Assembly (NCBI GenBank): GCA_001897435.1
Contig: MKSV01000003.1
Span: forward strand, 651,250 to 715,249
Length of the DNA: 64,000 nt
Source: Acidobacteriales bacterium 59-55
GTDB taxonomy: Bacteria > Acidobacteriota > Terriglobia > Terriglobales > Acidobacteriaceae
Reading direction: 5' to 3'
How positions within the stretch are numbered: position 1 is the stretch's first letter; every line of letters begins with the position of its first letter. This document shows, piece by piece, positions 17,228 through 25,128 of the stretch. Under the pieces are notes generated by a model, which saw only the letters and a list, made by a program, of their open reading frames with translations, did not search any database and was not told the DNA's origin. Both the position numbers and the translations under genes were made by a program.

Positions 17228-17509
17228 GGACCCGATTCGACGGGGAGCGCAATATTTTTCATTTATTGAAGATGCAAAAAAATGCACCTTCAATGCGCGA
17301 AATCACCTTGCGCGGGCCGTCTTCCGAGCACCGATAGTCCTCTTCGGCGCAAAATCTGTCATTTTCCTCTGAATATCCCCACGGGTGCTATTGTTTGCAC
17401 TCCGAGTGGAATTCCATTACCCGTTGACACGCCGTTACTTGCCGGACGAGCCTAAGACTTGCAGCATTCGTTTTTAAGACAGTTTTTACAGGTCGGAAAG
17501 GCTCCATCC

Positions 17510-18025
17510 ATGCGCAAATTTCTCCTTGGTCTTACCCTCATCCTGGTCGCTCCTCTGGCGGCTTACGCGTCTCCTGTCAGCTACGATCTCGTACTGACCA
17601 ACGTGATCGGAAATATCTCCGGCGGCACCGGATCGTTCACCATCGACAACGCTCCCGACACCGCCCTCAATTCGGTCTCCACCTACCTGCAGAGCGACAA
17701 CTCGCTCAGCGCCATGTCCTTCCTGATCGACGGCACCAGCTTCTCGCTCGCCGATACCTTCGGAGGCACACTCGCCCAGTTCATCTCCGGCGACCTCAGT
17801 GACATCACCTACTTCGGCATCAACTCGACCTTCACCATCTCACTGGCCGCCAACGGACTCCAGTACCAGTTCTATAACGCAGCTAACGGCGACAACTCCA
17901 TCGGAACCGTCTCCGCCTCGCTCGCAGGCGGCGACACGGCAGTACCCGAGCCCAACAGCGTCCTGCTCTTCGGCACCGGCCTGCTGGCCTTCGCCGCAAT
18001 CGGCTCGCGCAAGCTGCTCGCCTGA
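17510..18025 (+). CDS. PEP-CTERM sorting domain protein
   Basis: Signal peptide; C-terminal VPEPNSVLLFGTGLLAFAAIGSRK. Confidence 0.9.
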   Translation: MRKFLLGLTLILVAPLAAYASPVSYDLVLTNVIGNISGGTGSFTIDNAPDTALNSVSTYLQSDNSLSAMSFLIDGTSFSLADTFGGTLAQFISGDLSDITYFGINSTFTISLAANGLQYQFYNAANGDNSIGTVSASLAGGDTAVPEPNSVLLFGTGLLAFAAIGSRKLLA

Positions 18026-18297: not shown

Positions 18298-19800
18298 CTA
18301 CTTCCCCGCCGGGCACACGCACCCGGCGAATCCCTTCGCCGTATCCTGCGACATCCCGCACACGTACTGCGGCCACAGCGGCTTGATCAGCGACGAGCGA
18401 TCTCCCACTACAAAGTTCCTGATATAGGCCTGGCTCGCCGCCGTCGTTGCATCGGGATCGCGGCGAAACTCCCCTACCAGCTTGCCCAGCGCCACGGCCG
18501 AGACCGCCGCCGCATGGTAGGTCGCGCCGTAGTCGTACTCCTTCGACCACACCGTATCGACACCCGTCTTGTTCGAGGCAGCGAAGACGGCATAGTCCGC
18601 CAGCGTCGCCGACGCGGTGTTGACGCGCGCCACGGTAAAGGAAGGATTGTTGCCGTTCACCGGAGAGATGGATGCGACCATCTTCACCGCCACCGTGCCG
18701 CTCTTCGCCCCCTGCACGCCCCGGCCCGGACCCAGCAGCCGCAGCTCATCCATGTGCGTGTGGGCAAAGATCGCCAGCCGCACCACGTCGGCATACTCGG
18801 CCAGCACATCACCCAGGGCATCGGACGAGAGCGACATCGCGGGCGCGTCGCCGCCGCACACGTTGCTCATCTTCGCGAAGGTCGAATAGATATCCACCCC
18901 CGGCGGTATGTGCGCCATCACCCACACTCTCTGCTTATGCCGCCGCGCCTCGTCCAGTTGCGTGCGCAGCCACTTGATCTGCGCGATGGCGACTGACCGG
19001 TCCGGCTTGCCCCCGCAGGTCGCGTACTGCGTCAGCATGAAAAGATCGTCCAGCACGATCATCCGTGTCCGGCGCATCGGCGCGGCCATCCTCACGTTAT
19101 ACGATCCGCTGGCAGCGAAGTCCGCCAGCGCCTTCGCCCGTTCTTTCGAAGACATCGTCCCCGGCAGGCCCGCGGCGACATCCTTGCCCACCGCCGCCAG
19201 AAAATCGCTGCCGCCATCCAGCCGGTTGTCGCCGCAGCCCGAATCGTTGTTCCCCAGCGCGACGTATACCGGCACGCCGGGAAACGTCCGGCGCAGCTCC
19301 GCCGTCACGTAGGCAATCGTCTTTTCGACAAAGGCGGTGTAGTCGCTCTGCGTCTTGCCCGAAGCCAGCGCCGCGAACCGGCAGGGAAAGTTATGCACCA
19401 CCAGATCCCCGCTCACGGTGATAAACCGCGCGTCCGGCGCCTCCTTCCGGGCCGCCGTCAGGCTCGACTGCAACAGTGCGTACGAGCTGTCGACGCCGCG
19501 CGCGCCGCACCGCTGCTGCAACGCGGCAAACGCCGTCGCCTGGTCCGGCGACGGCGGCTCCGCGAGAATCGCGTTCCACTCACTCGCCGGAGCATCGACC
19601 AGCCGCGCCGCCTTGGCGGGATCGTGAAACGGGTCGAAGTGAATATCGCTCACCAGCAGCGCCGGAACCGTACGCCGCGCCGCCGTATGGGCCGTCTGAC
19701 TGGCCTGTTCTGTCTGACTCGCGGCGGGCCTCGTCGTCACGCCGCAAAGCAACAGCGCCACCGAGAGACAGGCAACTCGCAAGACAATCAAACTCTTCAT
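18298..19800 (-). CDS. Secreted acid sphingomyelinase-like metallophosphoesterase
   Basis: SDIHFD, SGDLVVH, LGNNDS, HIPPG, FAHTH; signal peptide from MKSLIVLR. Confidence 0.8.
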   Translation of the reverse strand: MKSLIVLRVACLSVALLLCGVTTRPAASQTEQASQTAHTAARRTVPALLVSDIHFDPFHDPAKAARLVDAPASEWNAILAEPPSPDQATAFAALQQRCGARGVDSSYALLQSSLTAARKEAPDARFITVSGDLVVHNFPCRFAALASGKTQSDYTAFVEKTIAYVTAELRRTFPGVPVYVALGNNDSGCGDNRLDGGSDFLAAVGKDVAAGLPGTMSSKERAKALADFAASGSYNVRMAAPMRRTRMIVLDDLFMLTQYATCGGKPDRSVAIAQIKWLRTQLDEARRHKQRVWVMAHIPPGVDIYSTFAKMSNVCGGDAPAMSLSSDALGDVLAEYADVVRLAIFAHTHMDELRLLGPGRGVQGAKSGTVAVKMVASISPVNGNNPSFTVARVNTASATLADYAVFAASNKTGVDTVWSKEYDYGATYHAAAVSAVALGKLVGEFRRDPDATTAASQAYIRNFVVGDRSSLIKPLWPQYVCGMSQDTAKGFAGCVCPAGK

Positions 19801-19863
19801 CCCCGCTCCTCCACGTCTCCTGTGAAGAATAAGACATCCTCTCTCTATCGGCAGCGCAAAGAA

Positions 19864-19956
19864 CACGTCATCTCGACCGAAGGCCGCACAGCATCACGCC
19901 CACAAATGCACGTCATCTCGACCGGAGCGAAGCGCAGTGGAGAGACCCCTGTATTT
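19864..19956 (+). repeat. REP-like family A (partial plus full copy)
   Basis: Two CGTCATCTCGACC heads, one GGAGAGACCCCTGTATTT tail. Confidence 0.8.
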
Positions 19957-20006: not shown

Positions 20007-21536
20007 CTACTGCACCATCGCATCGAACGTGCCCGTCTCCACCACGCCGCCATGCTTCATCTGAATAAAGATGCGGTACCGCCCCGCCGAAGGAAAGCCA
20101 TAGGGAAACTCCACCACGTTCGACATCGGCGCGGAGTGCATCGGCATCTCCATCGCCGTGTGGTCCGGCATACCCGTCATCGCCCCGCCGGCCGCCCCGC
20201 TCTTGTCCGCCATCATCATCGCCGCCATCGCCGCCGAGCCCTCCGGATGCGTATGCGCGAAGACCGTCCCATCCGTCTTGACGAAGGCCGCGTGGCCCGC
20301 CATGCCCAGGTACGGCTGCATCTCCGTCGCCGGCTTGCCGTGGCCATCCATCAACCGAAAGCGAAAGGCATAGGCGGTATGCGCAGTGATCGTCGTGGGC
20401 CGGTCCCACACCATCACGTAGCCGTCCGGCAGCGTGTACGAACTGCCCAGCATCCCCTCACTCAGCGGAGCAGGTCTCCCCTCCGCACCCTCGCTGTCCA
20501 GCGGAACACCCGCCATCCCCGCCGGTATCTTCACGCTGGCGACCAGCGTCTCGGGAAAGCCGTTGCGATGAACCACGTCGCCATAGAGGTGATACTCGCC
20601 CTCAGGCATCGAGGGCAGCGCCACGCGAAACTCGCCCTTGCCCGCCAACACCGGGTGCAGATGGAAGACAGCGTCCATCTCCGGCCAGCGAATGACGTAG
20701 AGATGCATCAGATGCCCGTGGTCGGGCAGAAAGTCGTCGTTCGAGCGCGAGTGGCCGCCCCTCTCATCGGGATTCGCCTTCGAGGAGATCACGTTCAACT
20801 GAAGCTGATTGCCCTCGAGCACCGGCTCCATCGTCAGCGGACGAAAGACCCCAGCCGCATAGTCTGCCGCATCCACCTGCCACCACTTCGCGCCGCCCCA
20901 TACCAGCACCCCCATCAGCACCAGGCTCGCCGCCGAGGCAACCAGCGCGCGCCGCCTCAGGGCAGCCGAGGCCGTCGCTCCCGGAGCCAGGCGGGCGTCC
21001 CTCACCGCCGCCGCCACCATGCCCGCCATGCCGATCAGCAGAAACAGCCCCAGCATTCCCAGCGTGATGCCGAGGCTGCGATGCATCGTCATCGTCGACA
21101 ACGCAGCCGCCGGAACCGGCACTGCCGCCGTGTATTGTCCGCTCGCGCCCGACACCGCGAAGCGCACCTCCCACGAGCCCGACGCCATCAGCCACAGATT
21201 GCCGGTAAAGAACGCCGGATCGCTCGCCGACCGCTTCATCACATCGGGCGTCGGCGGATGGTTGGCGGCATCTCCCGTCATCGGCACCGGCGTTACCGTC
21301 ATTCCATCGACGGCGGCTCCGCTCGACCGCACCTCGATGCCCGCCACGCCCGGAATCACGGTCGGCGTGCGCACCGTGACAAAGAGCTTGTACGGCCCCG
21401 CGCTCACCTGCTCGAAGACGTCCTTGCTGCCCACATGCGCCTGCGCTACCTGCGGAGCCGCCAGCACGCCGAGCAGAAAAATCAACAGTGCCCAGCGCAC
21501 AGGAACCAACCTAACCCGGGACAAACCGATCCTCAT
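20007..21536 (-). CDS. His/Met-rich exported membrane-anchored protein, PmoB-like topology (putative copper-binding)
   Basis: Signal peptide ending AQA-H34, soluble domain, two TM helices, soluble domain with DHGHLMH, FHLHP, GHAAF...AHTHP and Met-rich stretch; ATGA overlap with upstream gene. Confidence 0.7.
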   Translation of the reverse strand: MRIGLSRVRLVPVRWALLIFLLGVLAAPQVAQAHVGSKDVFEQVSAGPYKLFVTVRTPTVIPGVAGIEVRSSGAAVDGMTVTPVPMTGDAANHPPTPDVMKRSASDPAFFTGNLWLMASGSWEVRFAVSGASGQYTAAVPVPAAALSTMTMHRSLGITLGMLGLFLLIGMAGMVAAAVRDARLAPGATASAALRRRALVASAASLVLMGVLVWGGAKWWQVDAADYAAGVFRPLTMEPVLEGNQLQLNVISSKANPDERGGHSRSNDDFLPDHGHLMHLYVIRWPEMDAVFHLHPVLAGKGEFRVALPSMPEGEYHLYGDVVHRNGFPETLVASVKIPAGMAGVPLDSEGAEGRPAPLSEGMLGSSYTLPDGYVMVWDRPTTITAHTAYAFRFRLMDGHGKPATEMQPYLGMAGHAAFVKTDGTVFAHTHPEGSAAMAAMMMADKSGAAGGAMTGMPDHTAMEMPMHSAPMSNVVEFPYGFPSAGRYRIFIQMKHGGVVETGTFDAMVQ

Positions 21537-22726
21537 CGCTGCACGCCCCTCATCCAGCGGCCGAAGCGCAGCCCCACCCATGTGCCGACCGAACCGTAAA
21601 CGGCTGCGCGCAACAAGCCCTCCCAGAGTGCGGCCCCATGATCGGGATGGAAGAAGATTCGCATCCGGTCGATCCCGTTGGGCCGCGAGTTGTAGTCGAA
21701 ATAAATCGTGCCGAAGAACCGGTTCTCCGATGCCTTCGAGAGCAGAAACGAAGCGAACGGCCACTCCACCACGGTCAGCACCGCGATAAAGACCGCACCC
21801 GACACCGCCGCCACCTGCCACGGCTTCCACGCCCGCGTCCGCTGCCACAGCAGATCGAGCGCCAGCGCCGGCACGATGATCAGGATGGGGAACTTCGCCG
21901 GAACCATGTGCGTCACCGGAAAGAAGACCGGCCCCAGCTTCGGCTCGGCGGGAAACAGCGGCAGAATCAGGATCTCGCCGATAACGAAGAGCATATAAAC
22001 CGTCGCCGCCCAGGTCGCCGCCCAGCGATGCCGCGAAGCCGCCAACAGCACCGCGAAGACCAGCGGCAGCGCGATGCCCATGGCGACATAGGCGCTCACC
22101 TGGTGCAGCTTCACATCCCACGTGTACTCCATCAGAAAGAACATCTGCCCGCCGACGATCAGGCCGCCAAGGTACAGAAACAGCCGCTGCAGCGCCCGGA
22201 AGCTGCGCTCGCCGCTCCCGCCCGCGTCCGCCGCACGGTTCATCGCCGCCAGAATCAGGAACAGCATGCCCACGCCCACCGCGCGGATGCCCAGGATCAG
22301 CAGCGTATGCGGCGGGCTCACGATCTTCACATCGAGGCCATAGGCCGCGTGCCACCAGTTATCGAACGGAGCCGAGGTCAGCATCGCGATGCCGCCCCAC
22401 GCCGCGATAAACGCCCCCAGTGGCGCGCGAAATCCGAGCACGTTCACCGAGGCAGCCTTCTTTTCGGCGGATCGCCCAAAGGTCGTCGCAAAGATCAGGT
22501 AGCCGCAGATCACCGCCGCCAGCACGCCGCACGCATAGATGGCCATGTGCGCCGGGGTCCAGAAGGTATCGCGCCCGATGGAGCGATGCCACGACACATC
22601 CCACGCGCCGCCCACCGAGGCCGACGTCACCGCCAGCACGCCGCCCCAGACGTACCACGGAACAGTACCCGAAGCCGCCTGCCCCGTCCCTTGCCCCATC
22701 GATGCGGATACCGCCGGACTCGCCAT
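21533..22726 (-). CDS. Polytopic membrane protein, PmoC/AmoC-like N-half fused to PmoA/AmoA-like C-half
   Basis: WDVSWHRSIGRDTFWTPAH (D43,H47,H60) and FDNWWHAAYGLDVKIVSPPH (D122,H126,H140); C-half WAAT..LFVIGE, FFPVTHMVP, IVPALALDLL, EWPF. Confidence 0.65.
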   Translation of the reverse strand: MASPAVSASMGQGTGQAASGTVPWYVWGGVLAVTSASVGGAWDVSWHRSIGRDTFWTPAHMAIYACGVLAAVICGYLIFATTFGRSAEKKAASVNVLGFRAPLGAFIAAWGGIAMLTSAPFDNWWHAAYGLDVKIVSPPHTLLILGIRAVGVGMLFLILAAMNRAADAGGSGERSFRALQRLFLYLGGLIVGGQMFFLMEYTWDVKLHQVSAYVAMGIALPLVFAVLLAASRHRWAATWAATVYMLFVIGEILILPLFPAEPKLGPVFFPVTHMVPAKFPILIIVPALALDLLWQRTRAWKPWQVAAVSGAVFIAVLTVVEWPFASFLLSKASENRFFGTIYFDYNSRPNGIDRMRIFFHPDHGAALWEGLLRAAVYGSVGTWVGLRFGRWMRGVQR

Positions 22727-22941: not shown

Positions 22942-23142
22942 CTCCTTCGTTCCCGCCCTGCCGCTCTTCCAGCCAAATCCATATCCGGCATGGCATCTTC
23001 TCAACCGCCTTGTAAAACCATCGTCCCCGCTATGCTATACCGCCAATATCCCATCCATATCCAGCCTTTTGCCCCGCTTCGTGGCATCATGGATGCAGCC
23101 GAGCTTGCACACCGCATCCGATCTACCGCATCTCATTTACTT

Positions 23143-23790
23143 ATGACGACTCAATACAATTCAGGCCGCGGCTCTTCCGGAACTTTCGTTGCCTTCCTCC
23201 TCGCCCTGATTCTGGGAGCCGTGGGCATGGTGTTCTTCCTTCGCCACGCCAACACCGGCATCCTCGCGCGCGTCGCCAACGTCATCACCGGCCGCACCAC
23301 GACTACCTTCGATACCTCCGTTCCCACCGTCGTCCAGAAGATCCAGCGCCTCAGCCGCATCGAAACCGTCGTTTACTCGCTCGACACCGTCATCGAAGGC
23401 TCGAAGTCGAGCGCCGTCCTGCCCGACCTGCTCGCCGGCGACCGCATCCTGCTGATCGTCCACGGCCAGTCCATCGCCGGCATCGACCTCTCCAAGCTCC
23501 GCTCCGAGGACGTCCGCATCAACGGCAAGTCCATCCGCGTCACCTTGCCCGCCTCCGAACTCTTCGTCACCTCGATCGACAACCAGCGCACCCGCGTCTA
23601 CGCCCGTTCCACCGGCCTGCTCACCTCGCCGGACCAGAATCTCGAATCCGAGACCCGCGCCCGCGCTCAGGCCCAGTTGCAGAAGGAAGCCCTCAGCGAT
23701 GGCATCCTCGACGCCGCCCGCAAGAACGCCCGCGACACCGTCGCCACCCTGCTCCACGGTCTCGGCTTCGAACACGTCGAGGTGATGTGA
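23143..23790 (+). CDS. DUF4230 domain protein
   Basis: N-terminal TM, VVQKIQRLSRIET, G..IAGIDLSKL, VTLPASE, GILDAARKNA. Confidence 0.78.
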   Translation: MTTQYNSGRGSSGTFVAFLLALILGAVGMVFFLRHANTGILARVANVITGRTTTTFDTSVPTVVQKIQRLSRIETVVYSLDTVIEGSKSSAVLPDLLAGDRILLIVHGQSIAGIDLSKLRSEDVRINGKSIRVTLPASELFVTSIDNQRTRVYARSTGLLTSPDQNLESETRARAQAQLQKEALSDGILDAARKNARDTVATLLHGLGFEHVEVM

Positions 23791-24198: not shown

Positions 24199-24255
24199 CC
24201 AAAGCAACCTGCCCCTTAAATGTTTCGTCCCGGCATTTGGTTCTGGACTGACCCT

Positions 24256-25128
24256 ATGCGCCTATTGATAACGCTCCTTGCCGCACTGACACTTTCCGCT
24301 CTCACCGAAGCGCAACAGGCTTCGCCGCCATCGGCGACCGGTGTGAACACTGCGATACACCGCTATCTCGGCTTCGACCGCAACGGATATCCCGGCGACG
24401 ACGCGCTGCCCGCGCTGCGCCGCCACTTCGCCTTCGCCGGATACTGGCTCAACAACCCGCCGGGAGCCTCCGGGAACGGTTGGCAGGGCAAACGCGAACT
24501 CCTGCGGCGGCAGGGCTTCGGCTTCCTCGTCCTGTTCAATGGCAGGCTCGACGCCGAGATCGTCAAGGCGCAGAAGTCCGGCACCGCGCCCGGTCTACTC
24601 GGGAAAAACGACGCTGCCGCCGCCATTGCCGCCGCCCGCCGCGAGAGCTTCCCACCCGGCACCATCCTCTTTCTCGATCAGGAGGAGGGAGGGCGTCTGC
24701 TCCCCGGGCAGGCTGCCTACCTCTTCGCCTGGACCGAGGCCGTCACGGACTCCGGCTATCGTTCCGGCGTCTACGCCAGCGGCCAGACGGTCGACGAGGG
24801 CCACGGTCACACCATTACTACCGCCGAGGACATTCGCAGCCACGTCGCGTCTCAGCATCTGCACCCCATCGCCCTTTGGGTGGCGCAGGATGCCTGTCCG
24901 CCTTCAAACGGCTGCGTTTTGCAGGCTCCGGCGCTCGCGGCCAGCGGAACGCCGGACGCGCTGGCGTGGCAATTTGCCCAGTCGCCACGCCGCAAGGCCA
25001 TCACCGCCGCCTGCGCTCGTAGCTATGCCGCCGACGGCAACTGCTATGCTCCTGATCTGCCGGGCCTGTTTCTCGATCTCGACGTCGCCGCTTCGCCCGA
25101 CCCTTCCAACGGGCGCGGTAACCAGTGA
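24256..25128 (+). CDS. DUF1906 / glycoside hydrolase-like secreted protein
   Basis: LGFDRNGYPG, FAGYWL, LFLDQEEG, SGVYAS, WQFAQS; signal peptide. Confidence 0.7.
   Translation: MRLLITLLAALTLSALTEAQQASPPSATGVNTAIHRYLGFDRNGYPGDDALPALRRHFAFAGYWLNNPPGASGNGWQGKRELLRRQGFGFLVLFNGRLDAEIVKAQKSGTAPGLLGKNDAAAAIAAARRESFPPGTILFLDQEEGGRLLPGQAAYLFAWTEAVTDSGYRSGVYASGQTVDEGHGHTITTAEDIRSHVASQHLHPIALWVAQDACPPSNGCVLQAPALAASGTPDALAWQFAQSPRRKAITAACARSYAADGNCYAPDLPGLFLDLDVAASPDPSNGRGNQ

What the first reader, a model, noticed from the sequence alone, without database searches (positions are those of the whole stretch)
20007..21536. Partner protein: predicted mature N-terminal His34 and His/Met-rich second domain
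The signal peptide ends AQA|HVGSKD, so His34 becomes residue 1. PmoB matures to His33, a CuB ligand, and N-terminal His is also the copper brace of LPMOs and CopC (established). After two TM helices come DHGHLMH, FHLHP, GHAAF, AHTHP and AAMAAMMM..MPDHTAMEMPMH, which are typical Cu(I)/Cu(II) ligand patterns. The HxH motifs lie in the second soluble domain, unlike PmoB, so the wiring differs. It may deliver copper or electrons to the membrane subunit (inference).
Basis: partly seen in the sequence, partly recalled or inferred. Interest (0 to 1): 0.75.

Follow-up and report, generated by a model that had tools for sequence, protein, structure and literature searches.

The report
Membrane-anchored copper-binding partner of PmoC-like protein
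This gene encodes an unnamed periplasmic, membrane-tethered protein that starts with a conserved histidine and carries two conserved three-histidine sites; it most likely handles copper for the neighbouring membrane protein, which distantly resembles the C subunit of methane/ammonia monooxygenase.

Summary
ORF 20007-21536 (-) encodes a 509-aa protein whose ATG overlaps the stop of the upstream membrane gene (ATGA).

- **Conservation:** in 105 diverse homologues (30-64% identity), His34 is kept in 97% and always follows a small -1 residue of a variable signal peptide. H273, H278, H292, H294, H415, H428, H430 and M412 are kept in 98-100%.
- **Structure:** the AlphaFold2 model (pLDDT 91.6) shows a beta-sandwich, a two-helix hairpin, then two more beta-sandwiches.
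  - The "second domain" is two duplicated domains, each with an H...HxH site.
  - The Met/His loop is conserved in composition only.
  - The N-terminal domain resembles the YtkA-like copper protein CrdA.
  - No PmoB homology is detectable; only the topology matches.
  - There is no Cys, so a blue-copper electron carrier is unlikely.
- **Support for copper:** soluble relatives of the tandem His domains are fused to CusF, HMBD or cupredoxin domains, and one sits in a Cus-like efflux operon. None of them starts with His.
- **The neighbour:** its fold matches only pMMO/AMO subunit C with high probability, though the E-values are weak.

Best reading: a copper capture and relay subunit for a PmoC-like partner. 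No metal binding has been shown. The family has no Pfam model and I found no paper on it.

The parts
20007..21536 (-). Whole gene for the 509-aa partner protein (P0001), including the stop codon at 20007-20009
   Evidence: More than 3700 homologues by word-index search; 2555 cluster representatives at E<=0.001.
21438..21536 (-). Sec-type signal peptide, residues 1-33, ending AQA
   Evidence: Basic n-region, hydrophobic helix 11-26 in the model. Position -1 is Ala or Gly in 103 of 105 homologues. Cleavage is inferred, not tested.
21435..21437 (-). His34 codon (CAT), the predicted first residue of the mature protein
   Evidence: His in 102 of 105 homologues, within the motif H-[VIL]-G-S-P-D. Also present in both paralogues of this genome.
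21099..21437 (-). Domain 1 (residues 34-146): periplasmic beta-sandwich, distantly YtkA/CrdA-like, with conserved W115 and M117
   Evidence: Strands 40-143 in the model. The family profile hits H. pylori CrdA at E 7.7e-4. Foldseek matches CrdA 9ll2_A with TM 0.69. The matched CrdA segment is Pfam YtkA at E 3.5e-17.
20856..21080 (-). Transmembrane hairpin (helices 153-180 and 191-227) with an Arg-rich cytoplasmic turn and the conserved W218-W219 pair
20502..20855 (-). Domain 2 (residues 228-345): beta-sandwich carrying D272, H273, M277, H278, H292, H294 and D320
   Evidence: These His are conserved at 98-99%. Homologous to domain 3 (hhalign probability 89.6%, E 1.9e-6). All His align with the CusF-HMBD-fused relative.
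20010..20501 (-). Domain 3 (residues 346-509): beta-sandwich carrying Y409, M412, H415, D422, H428, H430 and M437
   Evidence: M412 is 100% conserved and the His 98-99%. Duplicate of domain 2. Relatives give weak YtkA hits.
20118..20243 (-). Variable Met/His-rich loop inside domain 3 (residues 432-473)
   Evidence: Length 24-62 aa. Met is 8.3% here against 2.6% elsewhere; 61 of 105 homologues have at least 3 Met. pLDDT 52-65.
21533..22726 (-). Upstream, translationally coupled gene for a 397-aa, 10-helix membrane protein (P0002), PmoC/AmoC-like, with invariant D43/H47/H60 and D122/H126/H140
   Evidence: AlphaFold2 pLDDT 93. Foldseek gives high probability only to pMMO/AMO C chains.

Best explanation
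P0001 is the periplasm-facing, membrane-anchored metal-binding subunit of a two-protein complex with the PmoC-like membrane protein encoded just upstream.

After Sec export and cleavage at AQA|H, the free amino group and imidazole of His34 sit at the tip of a YtkA/CrdA-like beta-sandwich. There they form a histidine-brace-type Cu(II) site, possibly a mono-His brace helped by W115 and M117.

A two-helix hairpin anchors the protein next to the partner. Two duplicated YtkA-like domains follow. Each offers one His from one strand plus an HxH on the next; domain 2 adds D272/H273, and domain 3 adds M412/M437 and a floppy Met-rich loop typical of Cu(I) capture.

Copper is passed between these sites and the two Asp/His/His triads. 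By topology, those triads lie at the periplasmic ends of helices 1-4 of the partner.

What is shown:
- conservation of the ligand candidates;
- the domain architecture and the internal duplication;
- strict gene coupling;
- relatives fused to copper domains;
- the PmoC-like fold of the partner.

What is inferred:
- signal peptide cleavage;
- copper as the metal;
- physical contact with the partner;
- the direction and purpose of transfer (loading a catalytic site, or transport).
For: 1. His34 directly after the signal peptide in 102 of 105 homologues; seven further His and M412 at 98-100%.
2. Confident model with a beta-sandwich, a 2-TM hairpin and two beta-sandwiches.
3. Domain 1 matches the copper protein CrdA, a YtkA-like protein, by profile (E 7.7e-4) and by fold (TM 0.69).
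4. Domains 2 and 3 are duplicates whose His residues align.
5. The family profile finds soluble relatives of domains 2-3 (E 5e-30 to 1e-18). They are fused to CusF_Ec+HMBD, HMBD, Cupredoxin_1 or YtkA domains. One lies inside a YtkA-HlyD/DUF305/RND (Cus-like) operon. BLASTP of P0001 against the CusF-HMBD protein gives E 3e-13 with all seven His aligned.
6. None of these five soluble relatives starts with His after its signal peptide, and none has a P0002-like neighbour. The N-terminal His and the hairpin therefore go together with the PmoC-like partner.
7. The partner gene lies directly upstream in all three paralogous pairs of this genome and in about 76 of 80 genome loci. It is also upstream in remote homologues at 32-35% identity, with a 4-bp overlap. 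No third gene is conserved.
8. The partner keeps both PmoC triads invariantly. Its model matches only pMMO/AMO C chains with high Foldseek probability.
9. One degenerate member (P0212) has lost H34, W115, M117 and most His of both sites together.
Against: - No metal-binding, cleavage or interaction data exist.
- P0001 itself hits no Pfam or NCBIfam model, not even YtkA at E<=5.
- Model coordinates could not be inspected, so the distances between His34, the His3 sites and the partner are unknown. The model also contains the uncleaved signal peptide, and residues 29-33 have pLDDT below 50.
- Copper is inferred from fusions in distant relatives; His3 sites can also bind Zn, Ni or Fe.
- The PmoC link of the partner is weak by sequence. 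Single-sequence E-values are about 0.002-0.006. A narrow family profile lost the hit. hhalign aligned only a 21-residue motif at 50% probability. The best Foldseek E-value is 0.024.
- No copper genes are near any of the three loci in this genome.
Confidence: 0.55

Rival explanations
1. P0001 is a true functional equivalent of PmoB in a minimal two-subunit copper membrane monooxygenase. His34 and/or the His3 sites hold redox-active copper that activates O2 or passes electrons to the PmoC-like active site. The complex would oxidise an unknown hydrophobic substrate.
For: - Same topology as PmoB: signal peptide, N-terminal His domain, two TM helices, C-terminal beta domains.
- The partner keeps both PmoC metal triads and has a PmoC-like fold.
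- Two beta-sandwich domains with a His3 site and a His2+Met-type site recall PHM/DBH CuH/CuM (my own knowledge, not tested).
- One HMBD-fused relative is flanked by cytochrome c genes with weak Cu2_monoox_C hits.
Against: - No PmoB homology by Pfam, profile or fold.
- Domain 1 has no second conserved His, so there is no PmoB-type HxH.
- No Cys, so no blue-copper or CuA electron-transfer centre.
- The closest relatives of domains 2-3 are fused to chaperone-type Cu(I) domains and sit in an efflux context.
- Distribution is patchy within the genus, and one copy lies next to integrase/ParA genes.
- No reductase or downstream pathway genes are conserved nearby.
Confidence: 0.2
2. The protein binds a different metal (Zn, Ni, Fe or Co), or several metals. 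It would serve uptake, sensing or sequestration of that metal together with the membrane partner.
For: - His3 and N-terminal His sites are not copper-specific. N-terminal-His proteins that bind Ni, and others attached to permeases, are described in PMC12537917.
- The PmoC site holds Zn in some crystal structures (my own knowledge).
Against: - Fusions of the His-domain module are with CusF, HMBD, cupredoxin and YtkA domains, all Cu/Ag-associated.
- The Met-rich loop with MxM and MPGM patterns favours Cu(I).
- Domain 1 resembles the copper protein CrdA.
Confidence: 0.13
3. The conserved His residues are structural or belong to a non-metal function (for example proton or substrate gating). The protein would be only a scaffold for the membrane partner.
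For: No direct metal data exist. The beta-sandwich domains give generic Ig-like fold matches.
Against: - Eight His, with Met and Asp next to them, are conserved at 95-100% against a 30% background.
- They are lost together in one degenerate member.
- The His domains are fused to metal-binding domains in relatives.
Confidence: 0.07

Closest known systems
PmoB/AmoB, subunit B of copper membrane monooxygenases (Pfam PF04744)
   Same: - A signal peptide cleaved to leave an N-terminal His.
- A periplasmic beta domain, then two TM helices, then a periplasmic beta domain.
- Encoded next to a PmoC-type gene.
   Different: - No detectable sequence or fold homology.
- Domain 1 has no HxH; the HxH motifs lie in two extra C-terminal domains.
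- The domains are YtkA/Ig-like rather than cupredoxin.
- There is no separate pmoA gene.
YtkA-like domain proteins (Pfam PF13115): H. pylori CrdA (PDB 9LL2); B. subtilis YtkA, reported to act in metal loading of cytochrome c oxidase (cited in bioRxiv 10.1101/2025.05.23.655588)
   Same: - Small periplasmic or extracellular beta-sandwich used for copper handling.
- Domain 1 matches CrdA by profile and by fold.
- Domains 2 and 3 of relatives give weak YtkA hits.
   Different: - P0001 does not reach any Pfam YtkA score.
- CrdA has no His at all (PMC9182242).
- P0001 has three such domains, a TM hairpin, an N-terminal His and His3 sites.
YcnI (DUF1775) and YcnJ (CopC-CopD-YtkA) of B. subtilis, and CopC/CopD pairs
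   Same: - An extracytoplasmic domain with an N-terminal His, tethered to the membrane, working with a His-bearing polytopic membrane protein.
- YcnI uses a mono-His brace with a conserved Trp; P0001 likewise has a conserved H34 and W115.
   Different: - No Pfam hit to CopC, DUF1775 or CopD.
- The membrane partner is PmoC-like, not CopD.
- The geometry of H34 and W115 was not tested.
Unnamed soluble proteins with the same tandem seven-His module, fused to CusF_Ec, HMBD (PF19335), Cupredoxin_1 or YtkA (loci L092-L096)
   Same: Homologous domains 2-3 with all seven His aligned (profile E 5e-30 to 1e-18).
   Different: - They are soluble or lipoproteins without the TM hairpin.
- They have no N-terminal His and no PmoC-like neighbour.
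- As far as I could find, they are themselves uncharacterised.

Membership tests
PmoB/AmoB (PF04744 Monooxygenase_B) | Sequence match to the family model or to solved PmoB/AmoB chains | tested here: not met
   No Pfam hit at E<=1. phmmer and the family-profile hmmsearch against PDB sequences gave no PmoB/AmoB hit at E<=10.
PmoB/AmoB (PF04744 Monooxygenase_B) | N-terminal His of the mature protein plus an HxH in the same N-terminal domain (CuB: His33, His137, His139) | tested here: not met
   The N-terminal His is present and 97% conserved. Domain 1 has no other conserved His; H93 is only 7% conserved.
PmoB/AmoB (PF04744 Monooxygenase_B) | Cupredoxin - 2 TM helices - cupredoxin architecture | tested here: inconclusive
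   The topology is the same. Foldseek gives Ig-like arrays and CrdA, with no PmoB in the top 50. There are two C-terminal domains rather than one.
YtkA-like (PF13115) | Match to the Pfam model above its cut-off | tested here: not met
   P0001 and its three separate domains give no YtkA hit at E<=5.
YtkA-like (PF13115) | Remote homology or fold similarity to a bona fide member | tested here: met
   The family profile matches CrdA at E 7.7e-4. Foldseek matches 9ll2_A at E 4.5e-5, TM 0.69. The matched CrdA segment is YtkA at E 3.5e-17. The soluble relative L096 has YtkA above the cut-off in the domain-1 position.
CopC (PF04234) | Pfam match, and a His brace formed by His1 plus a second His in the same domain | tested here: not met
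   No Pfam hit. Domain 1 has no second conserved His.
YcnI / DUF1775 (PF07987) | Pfam match; mono-His brace with a conserved Trp | tested here: inconclusive
   No Pfam hit. H34 and W115 are both 97% conserved, but their proximity could not be measured.
Type-1 (blue) copper or CuA electron-transfer proteins | A Cys ligand | tested here: not met
   P0001 has no Cys, and no alignment column has more than 15% Cys.
Histidine-brace copper proteins in general (LPMO, CopC, PmoB CuB) | Copper chelated by the amino group and imidazole of residue 1 | not testable with these tools
   This needs N-terminal sequencing plus EPR or a crystal structure. Only the conservation of His at the predicted +1 position is shown.
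PmoC/AmoC (PF04896), for the partner P0002 | Family model match, both metal triads, and the fold | tested here: inconclusive
   Sequence hits are below threshold: E 0.002-0.006 and 17-20 bits, against cut-offs of 26.7 to 319 bits. The triads D43/H47/H60 and D122/H126/H140 are invariant. Foldseek gives high probability only to pMMO/AMO C chains, best E 0.024 and TM 0.55. A narrow family profile lost the hit.

The most novel reading that the evidence does not exclude
The pair is a minimal, two-gene relative of the copper membrane monooxygenases, widespread in soil heterotrophs (Acidobacteriota, Gemmatimonadota, Bacteroidota). In it, a non-homologous protein built from YtkA-like domains has taken the place of PmoB, including the N-terminal His and the TM hairpin. 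It would then be either an independent solution or an ancestral state of pMMO/AMO. It would also be a culturable, methane-independent system for asking what the PmoC copper sites and the N-terminal His subunit each do.
Probability: 0.2. Interest if true: 0.9.

Novelty: new variant of a known kind. Interest (0 to 1): 0.62.

Why it matters
Which copper site of pMMO/AMO does the chemistry, and what PmoB's N-terminal-His site is for, are long-running questions.

This is a large family without a name: more than 2500 clusters at 50% identity. It pairs a membrane protein that keeps both PmoC triads with a partner of PmoB-like topology but of different origin. That makes it a natural comparison system in culturable, non-methanotrophic soil bacteria.

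Separately, the tandem seven-His module (domains 2-3) is an unannotated domain family. It recurs next to CusF, HMBD and cupredoxin domains, so it is probably a missing piece of periplasmic copper handling.

If the protein only relays copper, the finding adds a new chaperone architecture. If the pair is an enzyme, it would widen the known range of copper membrane oxygenases.

Tried and rejected
- **Pfam and NCBIfam:** scans of P0001, of its separate domains and of 18 diverse or longer homologues found no family and no informative fusions.
- **PDB sequence search:** phmmer with P0001 found nothing.
- **Foldseek on the whole model:** mostly generic multi-Ig hits.
- **Partner against PmoC:** a narrow family profile (A2) against PDB lost the PmoC hit. 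hhalign of A2 against a PmoC fragment aligned only 21 residues.
- **Gene context:** in the window, and around the two paralogues, there are no copper genes and no conserved third gene.
- **Literature:** searches for PmoC-like or AmoC-like families, CuMMO in these phyla, and HMBD/YtkA found no description of this family. The APE1/PCC1 paper that mentions PF19335 is unrelated.
- **Phylum tally:** the alignment-based genome search probably undercounts. It found no match in the three same-genus genomes it sampled, while a single-protein query on a different, larger sample of the genus found strong matches in about half. I therefore do not rely on the 15/151 figure.
- **ORF filter:** my first GC3-based filter failed on the lower-GC contig. 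I replaced it with the ORF listing.
- **The 782-aa ORF 20007-22355:** rejected as a high-GC artefact that overlaps P0002 in another frame. All homologues start at the signal peptide.
Full report
**Observation**

The minus-strand ORF 20007-21536 encodes a 509-aa protein, P0001. Its ATG (21536-21534) overlaps the TGA of the upstream gene 21533-22726, which encodes P0002 (397 aa), in an ATGA arrangement. The longer ORF 20007-22355 listed by the ORF finder is a high-GC artefact that overlaps P0002 out of frame. All homologues begin at the signal peptide.

- AQA|HVGSKD; His34 is the CAT codon at 21437-21435
- DHGHLMH (272-278)
- FHLHP (291-295)
- GHAAF (414-418)
- AHTHP (427-431)
- the Met/His stretch 435-467

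**Is it more than chance?**

The family is large. A word-index search gave more than 3700 hits. An exhaustive HMMER search of 1.84 billion cluster representatives gave 2555 at E<=0.001 and 478 at E<=1e-30.

I aligned 105 full-length representatives with 30-64% identity to P0001 and 30% mean column identity (A1).
- Of the 19 His in P0001, eight are kept in 97-99% of sequences: H34, H273, H278, H292, H294, H415, H428, H430. The others are at 67% or less; H275 is 35%, and the loop His are at most 10%.
- Also conserved are M412 (100%), M117 (95%), W115 (97%), D272, D320, D422, Y409, M277 (87%), M437 (80%) and the W218-W219 pair.
- The residues before His34 vary in sequence and length (7-44 residues, some gene calls being N-terminally cut) but look like signal peptides. 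The -1 residue is Ala in 90 and Gly in 13 of 105, and the motif H-[VIL]-G-S-P-D follows.
- Both paralogues in this genome read ...SGYA|HVGSPDVY.

A mature N-terminal His is therefore a defining family feature. Cleavage itself remains an inference.

The Met/His stretch is different in kind. It is a loop of 24-62 residues with no conserved sequence and low model confidence. It is enriched in Met across the family (8.3% against 2.6%) and often carries MxM, MPGM or HxxH patterns.

**Anatomy**

AlphaFold2 with A1 gave a confident model, pLDDT 91.6 and pTM 0.87:
- signal helix 11-26
- beta-sandwich domain 1 (strands 40-143)
- two long helices, 153-180 and 191-227, joined by an Arg-rich turn; the turn is cytoplasmic by the positive-inside rule, so both soluble parts are periplasmic
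- beta-sandwich domain 2 (235-337)
- beta-sandwich domain 3 (351-508)

hhalign of the two sub-alignments gives 89.6% probability and E 1.9e-6. It aligns PDHGxLMH...FxHLHP with PYxGMxGH...FxHxHP, so H278 pairs with H415 and H292/H294 with H428/H430.

P0001 has no Cys, and the family has no conserved Cys column.

**What the domains are**

No Pfam or NCBIfam model matches P0001, its separated domains or 18 other family members.

The family profile matches one solved protein, the H. pylori copper-resistance protein CrdA (9LL2), at E 7.7e-4 over the second half of domain 1. CrdA is also the only single-domain Foldseek match of the model (E 4.5e-5, TM 0.69 on the target). The remaining matches are generic multi-Ig arrays. 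The matched CrdA segment is a YtkA-like domain (PF13115, E 3.5e-17).

PmoB/AmoB does not appear in the Pfam scan, in the PDB sequence searches at E<=10, or in the top 50 fold matches. P0001 therefore resembles PmoB only in topology.

**Relatives that point to copper**

A scan of 151 genomes of the same phylum with the A1 profile found weaker hits (E 5e-30 to 1e-18) that cover only domains 2-3. I fetched five of them. All are soluble or lipoprotein forms:

| Locus | Architecture | Context or support |
|---|---|---|
| L093 | CusF_Ec + HMBD + D2 + D3 | CusF E 6.8e-14, HMBD E 2.3e-10 |
| L094 | HMBD + D2 + D3 | flanked by two cytochrome c genes with weak Cu2_monoox_C hits |
| L095 | HMBD + D2 + D3 | |
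| L092 | D2 + D3 + Cupredoxin_1 | Cupredoxin_1 E 2.4e-17; inside a YtkA-HlyD / DUF305 / RND efflux operon |
| L096 | YtkA + D2 + D3 | YtkA above its cut-off |

BLASTP of P0001 against the L093 protein gives E 3e-13, with all seven His aligned. Several of these D2 and D3 copies give weak YtkA hits, E 0.0016-0.0084.

None of the five begins with His after its signal peptide. None has a TM hairpin or a P0002-like neighbour. The N-terminal His and the hairpin are therefore specific to the form that is coupled to the PmoC-like protein. This is the strongest new support for a copper role. It also suggests that His34 acts together with the membrane partner.

**The partner and the coupling**

P0002 gives sub-threshold hits to AmoC/PmoC models and to solved PmoC/AmoC chains, E 0.002-0.006. 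In these alignments D43/H47/H60 and D122/H126/H140 fall on the CuC and CuD ligands. All six residues are invariant in 63 homologues down to 36% identity.

Sequence evidence beyond the motifs is thin. A narrow family profile lost the hit, and hhalign aligned only 21 residues.

The AlphaFold2 model (pLDDT 93, pTM 0.90, ten helices) matches pMMO/AMO C chains and nothing else with high Foldseek probability:
- 9cl2_Ca: probability 1.00, TM 0.55, E 0.024
- 9cl1_Ca
- 9leg_C
- 7s4m_C: rmsd 3.4 A over 141 columns, 23% identity

By loop charge, the N-terminus is cytoplasmic and both triads lie at the periplasmic ends of helices 1-4, facing the side where P0001's domains sit. This is my inference.

The gene pair is strictly conserved:
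- all three copies in this genome
- about 76 of 80 genome loci
- remote homologues at 32-35% identity, with the same 4-bp overlap

No third gene is conserved.

The pair occurs in Acidobacteriota, Gemmatimonadota and Bacteroidota. It is patchy within the genus of this genome, with strong matches in about half of the genomes sampled. The genome is Edaphobacter-like, judged from its TldD and PmbA clusters. The two other copies lie in a duplicated block, one of them next to integrase and ParA genes.

**Mechanism**

The best-supported reading is that P0001 is the periplasmic, membrane-tethered copper-binding subunit of a complex with P0002.
- His34 forms a His-brace-type site on a YtkA/CrdA-like domain.
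- Two homologous His3 sites, with Asp or Met next to them, and a Met-rich loop hold further copper.
- Copper moves between these sites and the partner's triads.

I put this at about 0.55. Whether the transfer loads a catalytic site or serves transport cannot be decided here.

One degenerate family member (P0212) has lost H34, W115, M117 and most His of both sites together. That fits a single functional unit, but it is one case only.

Rivals:
- **A redox-active, PmoB-like catalytic subunit (0.2).** It is favoured by the topology and the PmoC-like partner. It is weakened by the lack of homology, the lack of Cys and the chaperone-type relatives.
- **Another metal (0.13).**
- **A non-metal scaffold (0.07).**

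**Known relatives and novelty**

Functionally, the nearest described systems are:
- PmoB
- YtkA-like copper proteins, namely CrdA (PMC9182242) and B. subtilis YtkA, which is cited as acting in metal loading of cytochrome c oxidase (bioRxiv 10.1101/2025.05.23.655588)
- the YcnI/YcnJ and CopC/CopD pairs, in which an N-terminal-His domain works with a His-bearing membrane protein (bioRxiv 10.1101/2025.05.23.655588)
- N-terminal-His "anglerase" domains attached to permeases (PMC12537917)

P0001 fails the sequence tests for PmoB, CopC and DUF1775. It is only a remote relative of YtkA.

I found no paper describing this family or the tandem seven-His module. I class it as a new variant of a known kind: a periplasmic copper-handling protein in a new architecture with a new partner.

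**Limits**

- Model coordinates could not be inspected.
- No multimer prediction was possible.
- No experiment supports metal binding.

Earlier notes from this scan on this stretch and on two homologous pairs reached similar readings. I treated them as leads only.

Noticed in passing
L092:5130-6479, L093:4495-5877, L094:5309-6382, L095:5409-6488, L096:4974-6218: An unannotated tandem domain module carries seven conserved His (H..MH, HxHP, then GH, HxHP). It recurs in soluble periplasmic proteins fused to CusF_Ec, HMBD, Cupredoxin_1 or YtkA. It has no Pfam model and looks like an undescribed copper-handling domain family in its own right.
   Followed up: partly
L094:4006-5388 (+) and L094:6376-7773 (-): The HMBD-D2-D3 gene is flanked by two genes for proteins with cytochrome c motifs (CxxCH) and, in one of them, a weak Cu2_monoox_C (PHM/DBH-like) hit. 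These may be periplasmic copper monooxygenase-like proteins served by the chaperone-like gene.
   Followed up: no
G000 contig C7: 412299-414946 and 1541572-1544219 (loci L090, L091): Two further copies of the gene pair lie here. The P0001-like proteins are about 83% identical to each other and 51-52% to the window copy. They sit in a duplicated block together with a 94%-identical unknown lipoprotein (554/571 aa) and an alpha/beta hydrolase. One block lies next to integrase and ParA-like genes, and the region is about 53% GC against 64% in the window.
   Followed up: partly
window 21533-22726 (-): Beyond the PmoC-like core (residues 24-164), P0002 has about 230 more residues with six helices and invariant H208, D291 and the PLFPAxPKLGP motif. 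Foldseek also gave a weak match (probability 0.41) to a second pMMO chain, 9cl2_Ba. Whether this half is PmoA-like is not settled.
   Followed up: partly
L088:345-1505: In a marine metagenome contig the P0002 homologue is split into two ORFs exactly between the WWHNA and SPPH motifs. This is either a frameshift (assembly error) or a pseudogene.
   Followed up: no
protein P0212 (ENA contig, no DNA available): This family member has replaced H34, W115, M117, H273, H292, H415, H428 and H430 all at once while keeping the fold and the upstream partner gene. It looks like a degenerate, probably metal-free, copy.
   Followed up: partly
window 18298-19866 (-): A secreted 522-aa calcineurin-like metallophosphoesterase lies just downstream on the same strand. 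It is not conserved next to the pair in other genomes.
   Followed up: yes
window 17459-18025 (+), 23101-23790 (+), 24220-25128 (+): Neighbouring genes are a PEP-CTERM protein, a DUF4230 protein and an Rv2525c-like glycoside-hydrolase-like protein. None is linked to the pair except in the closest relative, L007.
   Followed up: yes
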